Virus record (IMG/VR): IMGVR_UViG_3300044838_000023 | Coordinates: 1 to 55,647 of that record | Source of the DNA: a virus | Taxonomy: Duplodnaviria > Caudoviricetes | DNA: 55,647 bases | Strand: one strand, 5' to 3' | Shown: positions 21,343-39,326 of the stretch, one piece after another | How positions within the stretch are numbered: the stretch's first letter is position 1 | Layout: each line of letters starts with the position of its first letter | The notes under the pieces: model-generated | Databases searched by the model: none | What the model saw: only the letters and a program-made list of their open reading frames with translations | Told to the model about the DNA's origin: nothing | Made by a program: the position numbers and the translations under genes

Positions 21343-21844
21343 CTATCATTGGGTCAACTACACCGAGGAAGATCTCGATGGTCGGTTTGTCTCAGCGATG
21401 GCTGCTCAACGTGGTACTGCTTTGCATGATCTGGCACGTGACCTTATTACCTTAGGTGTTAAGTTGCCGAAGACTCGTACAACTTTAAACCTCTACGTGA
21501 ACGATGCGATTGGTTATCGTATGAGTCCTGAGCAGCCTCTGTATGTTTCAGAGAACTGTTTCGGTACAGCCGATGCTGTTTCGTTCCGTCGTAACCTACT
21601 TCGAATTCACGATCTAAAGACAGGCGTCACGCCGGTCAAGATCACACAACTCGAGGTCTATGCCGCAATGTTCTGCATGGAGTACCGATTCAAACCTTTC
21701 GACATCGACATCGAACTCCGTCTTTACCAGAACGACGACATGGTTGCGTATGAGGCAGATAACAATGTCATCATGCACATCATTGATAAGATTCAAACCT
21801 TCGACAAGCGGATTACCGATTTGAAGATGGAGGCACTGTCGTGA
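21284..21844 (+). CDS. Cas4-like / DUF2800-type PD-(D/E)xK exonuclease
   Basis: HAFLSAS..HW, GTALH, EQ.L, FGTADA, IHDLKTG, QL.VYA. Confidence 0.8.
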   Translation: MNFNTHSNLVGRHAFLSASNYHWVNYTEEDLDGRFVSAMAAQRGTALHDLARDLITLGVKLPKTRTTLNLYVNDAIGYRMSPEQPLYVSENCFGTADAVSFRRNLLRIHDLKTGVTPVKITQLEVYAAMFCMEYRFKPFDIDIELRLYQNDDMVAYEADNNVIMHIIDKIQTFDKRITDLKMEALS

Positions 21845-37247: not shown

Positions 37248-39326
37248 ATGGAACCGGATTTCAGCGGTTACGTTACCAAGGCTGGCCTCAAGTGCTCTGA
37301 CGGCCGAACCATCACTGCGGACGCCTTCAAGCACCAGGACAAGATGCGGGTGCCGCTCGTTTGGCAGCACCAGCACAACAGCGCCGAGAATGTTCTCGGT
37401 CACGTTGACCTGGAGGCTCGCGATAACGGGATCTACGGCTACGCTTACTTCAACGATGCTCCTCAGGGAGAGAACGGGAAGAAGCTAGTCGAGCATGGAG
37501 ACATCAACAAGATGTCGATCTACGCCAACGATCTCGTCGAGAAGCTTGTCGGGGGTGCCAAGCAGGTCTTGCACGGAGCAATCCGTGAGGTCAGTTTGGT
37601 GCTCGCTGGTGCAAATCCCGGCGCTCTCATCGACTACATTCGGATCGCGCACGAGGACGGCTCGATCGATGAATCTGAGGATGAGGCCTACATCTACACT
37701 GGCCTCGAGCTTGAGCACGGCGTGACACCTCCAGTCGCCGACAAAGTGGTTGAGGACGAAAACCTCGAGCACGCTGCAGGCGACGACAAGACCGTTCAGG
37801 AAATCTACGACGGGATGTCCCAGGAGGAAAAGGACGTCGTGCACTTCATGGTTGGCACCGCTTTGGAGGGAGCCACCGGCAGCGCGTCGCATTCGGATCT
37901 CGGTCCGGACGCCAAGCCGCAAGAGATCTACGACGCCATGTCGGACGGTGAGAAATCCCTCGTTCACACGATGATCGAGACCGCCGTCGAAGAGGCGAAG
38001 ACCACAGCAGTCGCCGAACACTCGGCTCTCAACAAGGAAGGTAACAACATGAACGTGTTCGAGAACCAGGCCCAGAGTGCGGCGGCTCTGCAGCATGCAG
38101 CGATGATGGATGCCCGCTCAAAGCTCACCCCAGAGCGGATCAAGACCATCATCGCCGACATGGAGCAGATGGGATCCCTGAAGCAGTCGTTCCTCGCGCA
38201 CGCGGGCGACTACGGAATCGACAACATCGATCTGCTCTTCCCGGATGCCACGCTGGACAGCAACGGCATCACGTTCCTCAGCCGGCGCATGGAGTGGGTC
38301 AACGATGTGCTGACCAACACCAAGCACTCGCCGTTCTCGCGGGTAAAGTCGCTCTCCGCTGACATCACCGCCGATGAGGCGCGGGCGAAGGGTTACGTCA
38401 AGGGGAACATGAAGAAGGACGAGGTCATCAAGCTGCTTCGTCGGATCACCACCCCGAAGACGATCTACAAGAAGCAGAAGCTCGACCGTGACGACATCCT
38501 GGACATCACGGAGCTCGACATCGTCGTCTGGCTCAAGGCCGAGATGCGGATCATGCTCGACGAGGAAATCGCTCGTTCGGTCCTGATCGGTGACGGTCGC
38601 CCGGCTGACGACGAGGATAAGATCGACGAAGATCACGTTCGTCCGATCGCTTTCGATGTCGACATGTACACGAGTCGCATCAACTTGGCCAGCGGCATCA
38701 GCACCCTCGACCTGATTGACGCTATCGTCACGGCGTTGAACAAGTACAAGGGCACCGGTACGCCGACCTTCTACACCACTCAGTCCGTCATGACCACGAT
38801 GCTCCTGCTGAAGGACACCCTTAACCGGCGTATCTACTCGACCAAGGCCGATCTGGCTGCGGCGCTGCTGGTCAAGGACATCGTTCCGGTCGAGGCCATG
38901 GAGCAGGAGACCGACCTCGTCGGCGTTCTGGTCAACCTCCAGGACTACCAGATCGGTTCGGACGCTGGCGGAAATGTTTCGATGTTCGACGACTTCGACA
39001 TCGACTTCAACCAGCAGAAGTACCTCATCGAGACGCGGATCTCGGGTGCGCTCATCAAGCCGAAGTCGGCTGTGGCCCTGTTCAAGGACTCGGGTCACAT
39101 CGTCACTCCGACGGCTCCGACCTTCGTCACCTCGACCGGTGTTCTGACGGTTCCGACCGTTACCGGCGTGGTCTACACGAATGAGGACACGGGTGTCACG
39201 CTGAGCCCGGGTGCGCAGACGGCCATCGCGGCCGGAGCCACGGTCGATGTTCTTGCGGTTCCTGCGTCGGGCTACGGCTTCACGCACGACGCCCAGGACG
39301 AGTGGGCCTTCACGCGCGACGCCTGA
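37248..39326 (+). CDS. Prohead protease / scaffold / HK97-fold major capsid polyprotein with C-terminal Ig-like domain
   Basis: VPLVWQH, MSI.A, EVSLV..GANP.A (HK97-type protease); acidic scaffold; EEIAR..LIGDG and FDIDFNQQKYLIETR.SG capsid motifs; highly biased codons. Confidence 0.88.
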   Translation: MEPDFSGYVTKAGLKCSDGRTITADAFKHQDKMRVPLVWQHQHNSAENVLGHVDLEARDNGIYGYAYFNDAPQGENGKKLVEHGDINKMSIYANDLVEKLVGGAKQVLHGAIREVSLVLAGANPGALIDYIRIAHEDGSIDESEDEAYIYTGLELEHGVTPPVADKVVEDENLEHAAGDDKTVQEIYDGMSQEEKDVVHFMVGTALEGATGSASHSDLGPDAKPQEIYDAMSDGEKSLVHTMIETAVEEAKTTAVAEHSALNKEGNNMNVFENQAQSAAALQHAAMMDARSKLTPERIKTIIADMEQMGSLKQSFLAHAGDYGIDNIDLLFPDATLDSNGITFLSRRMEWVNDVLTNTKHSPFSRVKSLSADITADEARAKGYVKGNMKKDEVIKLLRRITTPKTIYKKQKLDRDDILDITELDIVVWLKAEMRIMLDEEIARSVLIGDGRPADDEDKIDEDHVRPIAFDVDMYTSRINLASGISTLDLIDAIVTALNKYKGTGTPTFYTTQSVMTTMLLLKDTLNRRIYSTKADLAAALLVKDIVPVEAMEQETDLVGVLVNLQDYQIGSDAGGNVSMFDDFDIDFNQQKYLIETRISGALIKPKSAVALFKDSGHIVTPTAPTFVTSTGVLTVPTVTGVVYTNEDTGVTLSPGAQTAIAAGATVDVLAVPASGYGFTHDAQDEWAFTRDA

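What the first reader, a model, noticed from the sequence alone, without database searches (positions are those of the whole stretch)
21841..39326. Shared L-x-H motif links capsid polyprotein, RNAP and small head-region proteins: possible protease/packaging tag for injected cargo
Seen: near the N-terminus of several proteins there is an (acidic)-L-x-H-x-G motif: RNAP EVYLAHYG, the 32548 product DFLQHHG, 34716 EVLEHHG, 36664 TILMHDG. Similar motifs recur through the scaffold part of the capsid polyprotein (IAHEDG, LEHGVT, LEHAAG, AEHSAL, LQHAA, and FLAHAGD just before the capsid domain). Known: prohead proteases of T4 and phiKZ cut scaffold and internal head proteins at one short consensus. Inference: the fused protease cleaves after L-x-H (an unusual His P1), and proteins bearing the tag, including the RNAP, are packaged, matured and ejected. 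That would explain how non-host promoters could fire immediately on infection.
Basis: inference. Interest (0 to 1): 0.85.

Follow-up and report, generated by a model that had tools for sequence, protein, structure and literature searches.

The report
Shared His-motif capsid-loading tag in phage
A soil phage marks its own RNA polymerase and several small or enzyme-bearing proteins with one short conserved motif that resembles the repeated sites in its capsid scaffold, most likely so that they are loaded into the head, trimmed and injected with the DNA.

Summary
Bare [LIVMF]-x-H lies in the first 45 residues of 16 of 76 window ORFs.

- Two of the four proteins carry Pfam DUF7211.
- The RNAP N-terminus is a variant of it, kept in 120 of 120 homologs.
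- The fourth protein belongs to another family that keeps hydrophobic-x-His in 32 of 35 members.
- In the scaffold of the fused protease-scaffold-capsid protein, 534 of 619 His in 81 relatives have L/I/V/M/F at -2; 500 shuffles averaged 143. An independent set gives 285 of 319.
- These sites sit in predicted disordered linkers. One follows the protease domain (81 of 81). Another falls where the HK97 fold begins.
- DUF7211 loci found by motif alone hold this capsid fusion in 55 of 73 cases and the RNAP in 35 of 73.
- In Lactococcus phage 1706 the RNAP homolog and a DUF7211 protein are annotated "structural protein".

Packaging is well supported. Cleavage after His is plausible but unproven. I score it as a new variant of the T4-type capsid-targeting and prohead-protease scheme.

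The parts
21841..24561 (+). Two-barrel (QDE-1/YonO-like) single-chain RNA polymerase, 906 aa, with HTH regions at both ends
   Evidence: phrog_4291, E = 0. GADFDGD at aa 523-529, with D525 F526 D527 G528 D529 invariant in 29 sequences. The AF2 model's best PDB match is QDE-1 7y7r_A, Foldseek E 4e-7, followed by RDR2. 250 phage records hold a homolog.
21856..21918 (+). N-terminal tag of the RNAP: EVYLAHYGILRKSGRYPWGSG (aa 6-26), a DUF7211 variant with a 4-residue insertion
   Evidence: H[YF]Gx4SGRYPWGSG is present in 120 of 120 homologs. Mean top-residue frequency is 0.96, against 0.75 for the whole protein. pLDDT is below 50 for residues 2-26. The only hhalign hit between the DUF7211 profile and the RNAP profile is this segment, E 1.9e-4, probability 48%. 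The Pfam HMM itself does not hit it.
32047..32958 (+). 2H phosphoesterase domain, then DUF7211, then a basic tail. The ORF is open from TTG 31987; the likely start is ATG 32047, preceded by GAGAGGAGG
   Evidence: Two H-x-T motifs at nt 32122-32130 and 32392-32400. Pfam 2_5_RNA_ligase2 E 3.4e-4, below its cut-off, and DUF7211 E 7.7e-10. phrog_24711 E 4e-78. Homologs are annotated 'RNA ligase'.
32569..32619 (+). DUF7211 motif DFLQHHGVKGQKWGVRR, internal to the 2H fusion. An in-frame ATG at 32548 with its own GAGGAGG lies just upstream
   Evidence: Pfam PF23847, 38.4 bits against a cut-off of 27; 41.8 bits in the genome scan. Start contexts are shown.
32974..34719 (+). Large terminase subunit (context)
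   Evidence: Pfam TerL_nuclease E 3e-33; phrog_9 E 7e-106.
34716..35162 (+). Small basic DUF7211 protein, 148 aa; motif EVLEHHGVKGQKWGVRR at nt 34752-34802
   Evidence: Pfam PF23847, 36.9 bits. In an alignment of 63 such proteins only H17 G19 G22 W25 G26 are invariant. The nearest ESM Atlas clusters are DUF7211 and 91% viral.
35196..36680 (+). Portal protein (context)
   Evidence: Pfam Phage_portal E 1e-13; phrog_12 E 2e-41.
36664..37212 (+). Lys/Ala/Ser-rich protein between portal and capsid gene. N-terminus MMKLPDGTILMH, then YDPAKAHDYYEKHKKLKGR
   Evidence: No Pfam family. phrog_12541 and phrog_11413, function unknown. 32 of 35 family members have [LIVMF].H within 16 aa upstream of the YDP motif, and 3 start at the motif itself.
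37248..37631 (+). S78 (HK97 gp4-like) prohead protease domain, aa 1-128 of the capsid fusion
   Evidence: Pfam Peptidase_S78, 21.7 bits against a cut-off of 21. The model is confident for aa 1-120. Invariant H41 H43 H52 D85 S90 S116 in 35 sequences.
37632..38201 (+). Scaffold/linker region, aa 129-318, with nine hydrophobic-x-His motifs: H135, H157, H175, H199, H215, H240, H258, H283, H318
   Evidence: Nine of nine His have L/I/V/M/F/A at -2, P = 0.0008. Column conservation: H135 in 81 of 81, H157 in 74 of 81, H318 in 34 of 81, with His four columns later in 47 of 81. Residues 121-180, 209-219 and 250-291 have pLDDT below 50; H199 and H240 lie inside predicted helices.
38202..39326 (+). HK97-fold major capsid domain, from about aa 319
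   Evidence: VIA-align Z 13-16 to HK97-fold capsids. The N-terminal residues 2-5 of the Cain, Oxtober96, Che8 and Muddy chains align to model residues 307-320. HK97 chain residue 124 aligns to model residue 340. Foldseek probability 1.0.

Best explanation
The window is a near-complete siphophage genome. It belongs to the lineage that includes Lactococcus phage 1706 and the Streptomyces, Gordonia and Arthrobacter phages related to it.

Its head is built from one polyprotein: an S78 protease, a scaffold and an HK97-fold capsid domain. The scaffold is punctuated by hydrophobic-x-His motifs in flexible linkers. I read these as the protease's cleavage sites, with P3 hydrophobic and P1 His. This has the same format as T4's Leu/Ile-x-Glu, with a different P1. 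The first site (IAH135) would free the protease. The last (FLAH318, followed by AGDYG) would create the mature capsid N-terminus.

The same hydrophobic-Leu-x-His element opens a about 20-residue linear motif, Pfam DUF7211: [DE][DE][FY]L[EA]H[YFH]G[VK]KG[MQ][KR]WGVR. The motif occurs in three settings:
- about 14 residues from the start of small basic proteins encoded around terL and portal;
- after enzyme domains, here a 2H phosphoesterase;
- at the N-terminus of the phage's two-barrel RNA polymerase, with a 4-residue insertion.

A fourth protein family, between portal and capsid, carries only the hydrophobic-x-His part.

I propose that the motif is an encapsidation tag. Its invariant G-x-x-G-x-x-W-G part would dock the protein inside the assembling procapsid. 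The protease would then trim it at the His. The cargo (the RNA polymerase, basic proteins and effector-like enzymes) would leave with the DNA at infection.

What is shown: the motifs, their conservation, their linkage to this head module, and the database annotation of two such proteins as structural in phage 1706. What is inferred: docking, cleavage and ejection.
For: 1. Motif reality.
- DUF7211 scores above its cut-off in two window proteins.
- 63 small relatives share only H, G, G, W, G as invariant residues. Position -2 is Leu in 54 of 63 and hydrophobic in 63 of 63. The median His position is residue 14.
- The RNAP tag is present in 120 of 120 homologs. It is more conserved than the catalytic loop (0.96 against 0.92) yet is modelled with pLDDT below 50, as expected for a linear motif.
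- The single hhalign hit between the two profiles maps tag onto tag.
- Some small proteins begin MIIEKDVYLAHYG..., like the RNAP.

2. Scaffold sites.
- 534 of 619 His have L/I/V/M/F at -2, against 23% L/I/V/M/F composition and 70 of 265 in the capsid domain. Shuffles gave a mean of 143 and a maximum of 169.
- The result was replicated in 53 scaffolds found independently through DUF7211: 285 of 319, shuffle mean 69 and maximum 89.
- It also holds in phages 1706 and P092.
- The sites fall in disordered linkers. His135 after the protease domain is invariant in 81 of 81. The HK97 fold begins at about residue 307-320, next to His318.

3. Linkage.
- 55 of 73 genome loci found by the DUF7211 pattern alone hold this fused protease-capsid family; 54 of the 55 are on the same strand as the motif, and the capsid gene starts a median 3.5 kb downstream.
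- 15 of the 18 loci without it have less than 7 kb of downstream flank.
- 35 of the 73 also hold the tagged RNAP.
- 51 of 81 other loci held at that point (80 capsid-fusion relatives plus RosaAsantewaa L001) carry 1-7 tagged genes upstream of the capsid gene.

4. Virion presence.
- Phage 1706 orf75 (the RNAP homolog) and orf7 (two motifs) are annotated 'structural protein', as is ReqiPepy6 gene019.

5. Cargo-like partners.
- Among 85 larger tagged proteins, Pfam finds Gln_amidase (a papain-fold toxin domain) in 12, 2H phosphoesterase in 6 and GNAT in 2.
- The motif recurs 2-6 times in long chains, between domains.
Against: - No cleavage product, N-terminal sequence or mass-spectrometry result was seen. 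The two papers that may hold them (Garneau 2008, Summer 2011) are not in the library.
- The residues after His differ. Scaffold sites have Ser/Ala/Gly then Asp/Glu. DUF7211 has Tyr/Phe/His then Gly. The invariant His of DUF7211 may therefore belong to a binding motif rather than a cleavage site.
- The Pfam HMM does not recognise the RNAP N-terminus or the 36664 protein. The profile-profile probability is only 48%.
- Bare hydrophobic-x-His near an N-terminus is common: 16 of 76 window ORFs.
- The junction His318 is Tyr in 45 of 81 relatives, which have a His four columns later instead.
- Two of the three 'structural' proteins of phage 1706 that are encoded outside the morphogenesis module (orf62, orf71) lack the motif.
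- Co-occurrence with the capsid fusion could reflect common descent of one phage lineage rather than functional coupling.
- The basis of the 'structural protein' labels in the records could not be checked.
Confidence: 0.55

Rival explanations
1. The motif is an encapsidation or binding tag that is not cleaved. The invariant His is part of the H-x-G-x-x-G-x-x-W-G binding element. Its likeness to the scaffold's hydrophobic-x-His comes from both docking in the same pocket of the procapsid (scaffold mimicry), or is coincidental. The scaffold sites may or may not be cut.
For: - The invariant residues of DUF7211 lie at and after the His, not before it.
- The residues following His differ from those at scaffold sites.
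- The virion annotation and the linkage to the head module fit this reading equally well.
Against: - Position -2 is hydrophobic in 63 of 63 tags, and -3 is Phe/Tyr in 37 of 63. This matches the junction site SFLAH.
- The 36664 family shares only the hydrophobic-x-His part, and 3 of its 35 members begin right after where it would be.
- Motifs recur between domains of long chains, as in polyproteins.
Confidence: 0.25
2. The scaffold's hydrophobic-x-His repeats are not protease sites. They could be contact or pH- or metal-sensitive 'stickers' that hold scaffold to capsid, with the protease cutting elsewhere.
For: - His is 4.5 times more frequent in the scaffold than in the capsid domain.
- Two of the nine window sites (H199, H240) lie inside predicted helices of a duplicated scaffold repeat.
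- No solved example of an S78 protease with P1 His is known to me (recalled).
Against: - Most sites lie in disordered linkers of otherwise unconserved sequence.
- One site is invariant directly after the protease domain, and one sits where the HK97 fold begins.
- A fixed residue with a hydrophobic residue two positions before it is the format of known prohead-protease sites (T4, recalled).
Confidence: 0.12
3. The motif has nothing to do with the capsid. It could be a DNA-, membrane- or host-factor-binding element of early or accessory proteins, with the RNAP made only after infection.
For: - The preprint that describes the RNAP family places the gene in the replication module and does not mention virions.
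- The tails after the motif are very basic.
Against: - Tagged genes cluster beside terL, portal and the capsid gene in 51 of 81 other loci held at that point (80 capsid-fusion relatives plus RosaAsantewaa L001) and, separately, in the window itself.
- 55 of 73 motif-found loci hold the same capsid fusion.
- Phage 1706 orf75 and orf7 are annotated structural.
Confidence: 0.08

Closest known systems
T4 capsid targeting sequence (CTS) of internal proteins IPI-III and Alt, cut by prohead protease gp21 at Leu/Ile-x-Glu (recalled, not from a call)
   Same: A short tag near the N-terminus ends in the same tripeptide format (hydrophobic, any residue, fixed residue) that recurs in the scaffold and at the capsid maturation site. 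The tagged proteins are enzymes and basic proteins that would be injected with the DNA.
   Different: - The fixed residue is His, not Glu.
- The protease is an S78 domain fused to scaffold and capsid.
- The tag carries a further invariant G-x-x-G-x-x-W-G element with no T4 counterpart.
- It can lie after a cargo domain or recur within one chain.
- The host range is Gram-positive siphophages.
- Cleavage and targeting are not shown here.
phiKZ-like jumbo phages: protease gp175 cuts many head and inner-body proteins at Ser/Ala/Gly-x-Glu, and virion RNA polymerase subunits are packaged (recalled)
   Same: One prohead-protease consensus is shared by scaffold-like proteins and packaged enzymes, including a virion RNA polymerase.
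   Different: Those are multisubunit RNAPs in a myovirus with an inner body. This is a single-chain two-barrel RNAP in a 55.6-kb siphophage, and the consensus is different.
Virion RNA polymerases: N4 vRNAP, crAss-like gp66, P23-45 tape-measure-fused RNAP (the P23-45 paper PMC10770324 was opened only for a term search, which found nothing relevant; the others are recalled)
   Same: A phage-encoded RNAP carried in the particle for early transcription. crAss gp66 and the P23-45 enzyme are also two-barrel enzymes related to QDE-1.
   Different: No shared loading tag or protease site has been described for those enzymes, as far as I recall. Here virion presence rests on the annotation of the phage 1706 homolog.
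Pfam DUF7211 (PF23847), family of unknown function
   Same: Two window proteins are members above the cut-off.
   Different: - The family carries no function, and no held paper names it.
- The RNAP variant and the hydrophobic-x-His-only family fall outside the model.
The RdRP/YonO-like 'HTH domain-containing protein' of the actinophage and Lactococcus/Faecalibacterium phage supercluster (bioRxiv 10.1101/842583; passages read)
   Same: It is the same protein family, with the DxDGD loop and HTH regions at both ends.
   Different: The passages I read place it in the replication module. They mention neither the N-terminal motif nor virion association.

Membership tests
Pfam DUF7211 (PF23847) | HMM match above the curated cut-off of 27 bits | tested here: met
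   The 31987-32958 product scores 38.4 bits and the 34716-35162 product 36.9 bits. The genome scan gives 41.8 and 39.1 bits.
Pfam DUF7211 (PF23847), RNAP N-terminus as a member | HMM match or profile-level homology of aa 6-26 to the motif | tested here: inconclusive
   There is no Pfam hit even at E up to 10. hhalign of the DUF7211 profile against the RNAP profile gives one hit, tag on tag, E 1.9e-4, probability 48%, with a 4-residue insertion.
Pfam DUF7211 (PF23847), 36664 product as a member | HMM match | tested here: not met
   No hit. It lacks G-x-x-G-x-x-W-G and shares only hydrophobic-x-His.
Peptidase S78 (HK97 gp4-like prohead protease) | Pfam PF04586 match, with conserved Ser and His | tested here: met
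   21.7 bits against a cut-off of 21, E 2.5e-4, aa 6-129. H41, H43, H52, S90 and S116 are invariant in 35 sequences. Which of these are catalytic is inferred.
Peptidase S78 (HK97 gp4-like prohead protease) | Proteolytic processing of scaffold and capsid, and its site preference | not testable with these tools
   Only indirect evidence: motif enrichment and placement.
HK97-fold major capsid protein | Fold match over the whole capsid domain | tested here: met
   VIA-align Z 13.3-16.4 over model residues about 307-617, with 213-255 aligned residues. Foldseek probability 1.0.
Two-barrel RNA polymerases (QDE-1/RDR, YonO, crAss gp66) | Catalytic DxDGD loop | tested here: met
   GADFDGD at aa 523-529, invariant in 29 sequences.
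Two-barrel RNA polymerases (QDE-1/RDR, YonO, crAss gp66) | Fold similarity to a solved member | tested here: met
   The best PDB matches are QDE-1 7y7r_A (E 4e-7, probability 1.0, TM 0.31) and RDR2 7eu1_M and 7roz. A sequence profile against PDB found nothing.
T4-type capsid-targeting tag with prohead-protease site | The same short consensus occurs in the tag, in the scaffold and at the capsid maturation site | tested here: met
   Hydrophobic-x-His in the tags (63 of 63 small proteins, 120 of 120 RNAPs, 32 of 35 members of the portal-proximal family) and in the scaffolds (534 of 619 and 285 of 319 His).
T4-type capsid-targeting tag with prohead-protease site | Tagged proteins are present in virions | not tested
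   Only record annotations: phage 1706 orf7 and orf75, and ReqiPepy6 gene019, labelled 'structural protein'. The underlying papers are not held.
T4-type capsid-targeting tag with prohead-protease site | The tag is sufficient for encapsidation and is removed by the protease | not testable with these tools
   No experiment was available.
2H phosphoesterase (LigT/2'-5' RNA ligase superfamily) | Two H-x-T/S motifs | tested here: met
   HMT and HLT at nt 32122-32130 and 32392-32400.
2H phosphoesterase (LigT/2'-5' RNA ligase superfamily) | Pfam match above the cut-off | tested here: inconclusive
   PF13563 scores 21.1 bits against a cut-off of 27, and PF02834 scores 17.9 against 23.3. 6 of 85 tagged relatives match PF13563 at E up to 1e-3.

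The most novel reading that the evidence does not exclude
DUF7211 is a portable, about 20-residue capsid-loading and ejection tag. It works together with a prohead protease of unprecedented His-P1 specificity. A large lineage of Gram-positive siphophages, infecting both Actinomycetota and Bacillota, would use it to pre-load a single-chain two-barrel RNA polymerase and a changing set of effector enzymes into the head for delivery with the DNA. The effectors include 2H phosphoesterase, GNAT acetyltransferase and papain-fold deamidase domains. Long multi-tag chains would be polyproteins cut into separate cargo inside the capsid.
Probability: 0.4. Interest if true: 0.85.

Novelty: new variant of a known kind. 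Interest (0 to 1): 0.72.

Why it matters
- It would give a function to a widespread viral DUF.
- It would define a new cleavage specificity (hydrophobic-x-His) for the HK97/T4/herpesvirus-type assembly proteases.
- It would show that an ordinary-sized siphophage lineage of soil, dairy and gut bacteria carries its own RNA polymerase and effector enzymes in the particle. Injected RNAPs are so far known from N4-like, crAss-like, phiKZ-like and P23-45-like phages.
- The tag lets one read a phage's injected cargo directly from its genome, including candidate anti-defence enzymes.
- It could serve as a handle for loading foreign proteins into capsids of phages of laboratory strains.
- The question is directly testable with one virion mass-spectrometry experiment on phages already in culture collections.

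Tried and rejected
- **Bare L-x-H as a significant N-terminal signal: rejected.** 16 of 76 window ORFs have [LIVMF].H in the first 45 aa.
- **Pfam DUF7211 on the RNAP N-terminus and on the 36664 protein:** no hit at E up to 10.
- **Sequence searches against PDB:** nothing for the capsid fusion. For the RNAP profile, only a chance-level ribosomal protein row at E 0.6. Fold searches were needed instead.
- **Complex prediction:** protease domain (aa 1-128, alignment A1) with the first 45 residues of the 34716 protein (alignment A2). 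The verdict was no answer, score 0.04 against a mark of 0.32, and the controls were not run. This is neither for nor against binding.
- **Literature searches.**
  - 'DUF7211' found 0 papers.
  - The motif strings GMKWG, GQKWG, HYGVKG and HHGVKG found 2 unrelated papers.
  - Actinobacteriophage + RNA-dependent RNA polymerase + virion found 4 papers, none on packaging.
  - Two-barrel or virion RNA polymerase combined with names of these phages found nothing relevant among the 15 listed.
  - 'Capsid and protease fusion' was a poorly built query and returned only mass-spectrometry papers.
  - Searches on Cluster AU and phage 1706 gave no virion proteomics.
  - Any claim that the link is not in print rests on these searches of the held library only.
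- **Papers not available.** Garneau et al. 2008 (phage 1706) and Summer et al. 2011 (ReqiPepy6) are not held. I saw nothing of them, and what I say of their methods is recalled.
- **Supplements** were not consulted. Figure S1 of the preprint 10.1101/842583, which aligns the RNAP, was not seen and may show the N-terminus.
- **Term searches in opened papers** found nothing useful in PMC12205980, PMC10770324 and PMC5723332.
- **Test of whether every 'structural' protein of phage 1706 encoded outside the structural module carries the tag:** only orf75 does. orf62 and orf71 do not.
- **Not used:** The search of protein representatives, read laying and the look-up of sequencing runs. A 20-residue motif would sit near the E-value limit of the first, and reads cannot show protein cleavage.

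Full report
**What the window is**

The 55,647-base window is a whole IMG/VR virus record, estimated 93% complete. Its ends share a 126-base repeat. Gene content and nucleotide matches place it with Streptomyces, Gordonia and Arthrobacter phages.

The region of the finding holds these + strand genes:
- 21841-24561: a 906-aa RNA polymerase.
- 32047-32958: a 2H-phosphoesterase fusion protein (ORF open from 31987).
- 32974-34719: large terminase.
- 34716-35162: a 148-aa protein.
- 35196-36680: portal.
- 36664-37212: a Lys/Ala/Ser-rich protein.
- 37248-39326: a 692-aa fusion of an S78 prohead protease, a scaffold-like linker and a capsid domain.

**Checking the observation**

The bare tripeptide is not informative. 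16 of 76 non-overlapping ORFs of the window have [LIVMF]-x-H within their first 45 residues. L-x-H-x-G occurs five times in those ORFs, four of them in the claimed set. The value of the observation appears only when relatives are brought in.

**The motif in the small proteins is Pfam DUF7211**

- The 31987 and 34716 products match PF23847 at 38.4 and 36.9 bits against a cut-off of 27.
- I aligned 63 small relatives. Only His, Gly, Gly, Trp and Gly of H-x-G-x-x-G-x-x-W-G are invariant. Mean column identity is 13%.
- Upstream of the His, position -2 is Leu in 54 of 63 and hydrophobic in 63 of 63. Position -3 is Phe or Tyr in 37. Positions -4 and -5 are mostly Asp or Glu.
- The His sits at a median of residue 14.
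- No held paper names the family or the motif strings. The nearest ESM Atlas clusters are unnamed, DUF7211-bearing and 91% viral.

**The RNAP carries a variant of the same motif**

- All 120 listed homologs have H[YF]G-x4-SGRYPWGSG near the start. Position -2 is Leu in 116, Ile in 3 and Phe in 1.
- The segment is more conserved than the catalytic loop: mean top-residue frequency 0.96 against 0.92, and 0.75 for the whole protein.
- AlphaFold2 nevertheless models residues 2-26 with pLDDT below 50. That is typical of a linear motif that needs a partner.
- The Pfam model does not detect it.
- A profile-profile comparison of the DUF7211 alignment with the RNAP alignment gives a single hit. It maps tag onto tag with a 4-residue insertion, E 1.9e-4, probability 48%.
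- Some small DUF7211 proteins begin MIIEKDVYLAHYG or MIIDESTYLEHYG, like the RNAP's MIIEEEVYLAHYG.

The protein itself is a two-barrel polymerase:
- The GADFDGD loop is invariant.
- The best structural matches are QDE-1 (E 4e-7) and RDR2.
- It matches phrog_4291.
- A preprint describes the family as RdRP/YonO-like with HTH regions at both ends (10.1101/842583; passages read).

**The fourth protein**

The 36664 product is not DUF7211. It belongs to a family with a conserved YDPxKAxEYYxxxxxLKGR motif. 32 of 35 members have [LIVMF]-x-H within the 16 residues upstream. Three members start at the motif itself. One member has two copies, each preceded by the tripeptide.

**The scaffold**

I collected 80 relatives of the capsid fusion from viral contigs and aligned them with the window's.

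- In the region between protease and capsid domain, 534 of 619 His residues (86%) have L/I/V/M/F at -2. The L/I/V/M/F composition there is 23%.
- In the capsid domain the figure is 70 of 265.
- 500 composition-preserving shuffles gave a mean of 143, sd 9.8, maximum 169.
- His is also 4.5 times more frequent in the scaffold than in the capsid domain.
- After the His come Ser, Ala or Gly, then Asp or Glu.
- In the folded protease domain 330 of 550 His also have a hydrophobic residue at -2. These are conserved structural columns counted in every sequence, so that figure is not comparable.
- The sequences are related. However, the scaffold is otherwise poorly conserved and most sites do not align.

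Three columns are conserved:
- His135, directly after the protease domain: 81 of 81.
- His157: 74 of 81.
- A Leu-Ser-His at the column of window residue 295: 77 of 81. The window has Pro there and a Leu-Gln-His twelve residues upstream.

At the junction, the window's FLAH318 is shared by 34 of 81 relatives. 45 have Tyr at that column, and 47 have a His four columns later, in the string YALxHGI.

The same pattern holds in Lactococcus phages P092 and 1706.

**Where the sites lie in the fold**

- The AlphaFold2 model has a confident protease domain (aa 1-120).
- Residues 121-180, 209-219 and 250-291 are disordered.
- Helices lie at 183-209, 224-253, 277-287 and 295-319.
- The HK97 fold follows.
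- Seven of the nine window sites fall in or at the edge of flexible segments. H199 and H240 lie inside the two copies of a duplicated helix.
- VIA-align gives Z 13-16 to HK97-fold capsids. The first residues (2-5) of the Cain, Oxtober96, Che8 and Muddy capsid chains align to model residues 307-320.
- HK97 chain residue 124 aligns to model residue 340, and T5 chain residue 179 to model residue 336.
- From memory, the mature N-termini are Ser104 for HK97 and about residue 160 for T5. With those, both extrapolate to model residues about 317-320, which is His318.

**Independent replication and linkage**

I scanned one genome per prokaryotic species with the DUF7211 pattern alone. This gave 73 loci, mostly prophage-like regions of Clostridia, Bacilli and Actinomycetota assemblies.

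- 55 of the 73 hold the same fused protease-capsid family (protease E up to 2e-46). 54 are on the same strand as the motif, and the capsid gene starts a median 3.5 kb downstream of it.
- Of the 18 without it, 15 have less than 7 kb of downstream flank.
- In 53 scaffolds of this set, 285 of 319 His have L/I/V/M/F at -2. The shuffle mean is 69 and the maximum 89. The capsid-domain figure is 59 of 260.
- 35 of the 73 loci also hold the RNAP. It carries its tag wherever the N-terminus is complete.
- Of the 81 other loci held at that point (the 80 viral-contig relatives plus RosaAsantewaa L001), 51 carry one to seven tagged genes upstream of the capsid gene, all on its strand.
- ReqiPepy6 has eight tagged genes.

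This could be common descent of one lineage rather than functional coupling. The data do not separate the two.

**Evidence that tagged proteins are in virions**

- In the GenBank record of Lactococcus phage 1706 (EU081845.1), orf75 is annotated 'structural protein'. It is a full-length homolog of the window's RNAP (40% identity over about 1000 residues, E = 0). Its N-terminus reads SLQHYGTKRHSGRYPWGSG.
- orf7, also 'structural protein', has two DUF7211-like motifs.
- ReqiPepy6 gene019 is annotated structural 'similar to 1706_gp07' and has the motif at its N-terminus.
- Homologs in phages Gordon, Bing and Scarif carry the label 'virion structural protein'.
- I could not read the papers behind these labels.
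- Against a simple rule, 1706 orf62 and orf71 are also labelled structural, are encoded outside the morphogenesis module, and lack the motif.

**What the tag is attached to**

- Longer relatives carry the motif two to six times, at the start and between domains.
- In 302 motif-bearing ORFs of my loci, 284 have one copy, 17 have two and 1 has three.
- I scanned 85 larger members against Pfam. 78 match DUF7211, 12 match Gln_amidase (a papain-fold toxin domain), 6 match 2H phosphoesterase and 2 match GNAT acetyltransferases.
- These are effector-like enzymes, as expected of injected cargo.
- In the window, the 2H domain lies upstream of the tag. An in-frame ATG with its own ribosome-binding site sits just before the tag.

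**Interpretation**

The most economical reading has three parts.
- Hydrophobic-x-His is the cleavage consensus of the fused protease. It has the same format as T4's Leu/Ile-x-Glu.
- DUF7211 combines such a site with a separate docking element.
- Tagged proteins, including the RNAP, are loaded into the procapsid and delivered with the DNA.

My estimates:
- Packaging of the tagged proteins: about 0.75.
- Scaffold motifs being cleavage sites: about 0.65.
- Tags being cut at the His: about 0.45.
- The combined statement: 0.55.

The main rival is an uncleaved binding tag whose His belongs to the binding motif. It is favoured by the different residues after the His.

The window has nine copies of a 47-nt promoter-like element, but it contains a TATAAT-like hexamer. 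A host-type promoter is therefore not excluded.

**Novelty**

The following are already on record:
- the RNAP family;
- the DUF;
- the fused capsid gene;
- the 'structural' labels.

I found the following in no paper of the held library:
- the shared tag;
- the His-centred scaffold sites;
- their linkage across two bacterial phyla;
- the cargo reading.

I rate it a new variant of the T4/phiKZ type of capsid targeting and prohead processing.

Noticed in passing
window 1292-1338 and eight copies between 51274 and 54427: Nine + strand copies of a 47-nt element, CTCGCG...ACAyGGGTAATAGTGAGACCCCTAC, spaced 250-780 nt apart ahead of small genes (family D1). It contains a TATAAT-like hexamer (TATAAT, TATAGT or AATAGT). 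It looks like an early-promoter set, but which polymerase reads it is open.
   Followed up: partly
window 1627-1656, 52322-52351, 52574-52603, 53119-53148, 53926-53955, 54648-54677: Six copies of a hairpin, CCACA...ACAyGTGG, followed by TTTAGGTTTT. They look like terminators and alternate with the promoter-like element. The region therefore reads as a string of single-gene early units (families D4, D6).
   Followed up: no
window 1-126 and 55521-55646: An identical 126-nt repeat at both ends of the record. It is either a circular-assembly overlap or a terminal repeat (family D3). In isolated relatives the RNAP gene is the last gene at the right end. The window is therefore permuted relative to them.
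   Followed up: no
window 32520-32551: An in-frame ATG at 32548, preceded by GAGGAGG, lies inside the 2H-DUF7211 gene just upstream of the tag. A nested short DUF7211 protein could be made alongside the full fusion.
   Followed up: no
window 32794-32817: A second conserved element, L-S/T-x-x-E-L...R-M-N-L-E-Q-Q-Y, lies in the basic tail after the tag. It is also seen in ReqiPepy6 gp013 and in many longer relatives. Its function is unknown.
   Followed up: no
window 37784-37808 and 37907-37931 (capsid fusion aa 182-209 and 224-253): An internal duplication of a scaffold helix, ...QEIYDxMSxxEKxxVH.M...
   Followed up: no
proteins P0124, P0131, P0133 (1387-1592 aa): Very long chains with four to six DUF7211 motifs between domains. 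One has GNAT domains. All sit on short contigs. They look like polyproteins or fused tandem genes.
   Followed up: partly
window 18461-20194: The 577-aa helicase-like protein carries an insertion of about 190 residues, rich in Ser, Thr and Cys, between its conserved halves (translation).
   Followed up: no
window 42300-42981: Runs of GGCGGAGGC repeats encode Gly-rich stretches in the 42163-43164 product, downstream of the tail genes (family D2).
   Followed up: no
L085 (phage 1706) orf62 and orf71: Two small proteins are annotated 'structural protein' amid replication genes, and they lack the tag. Either the tag is not the only route into the particle, or these labels have another basis.
   Followed up: partly
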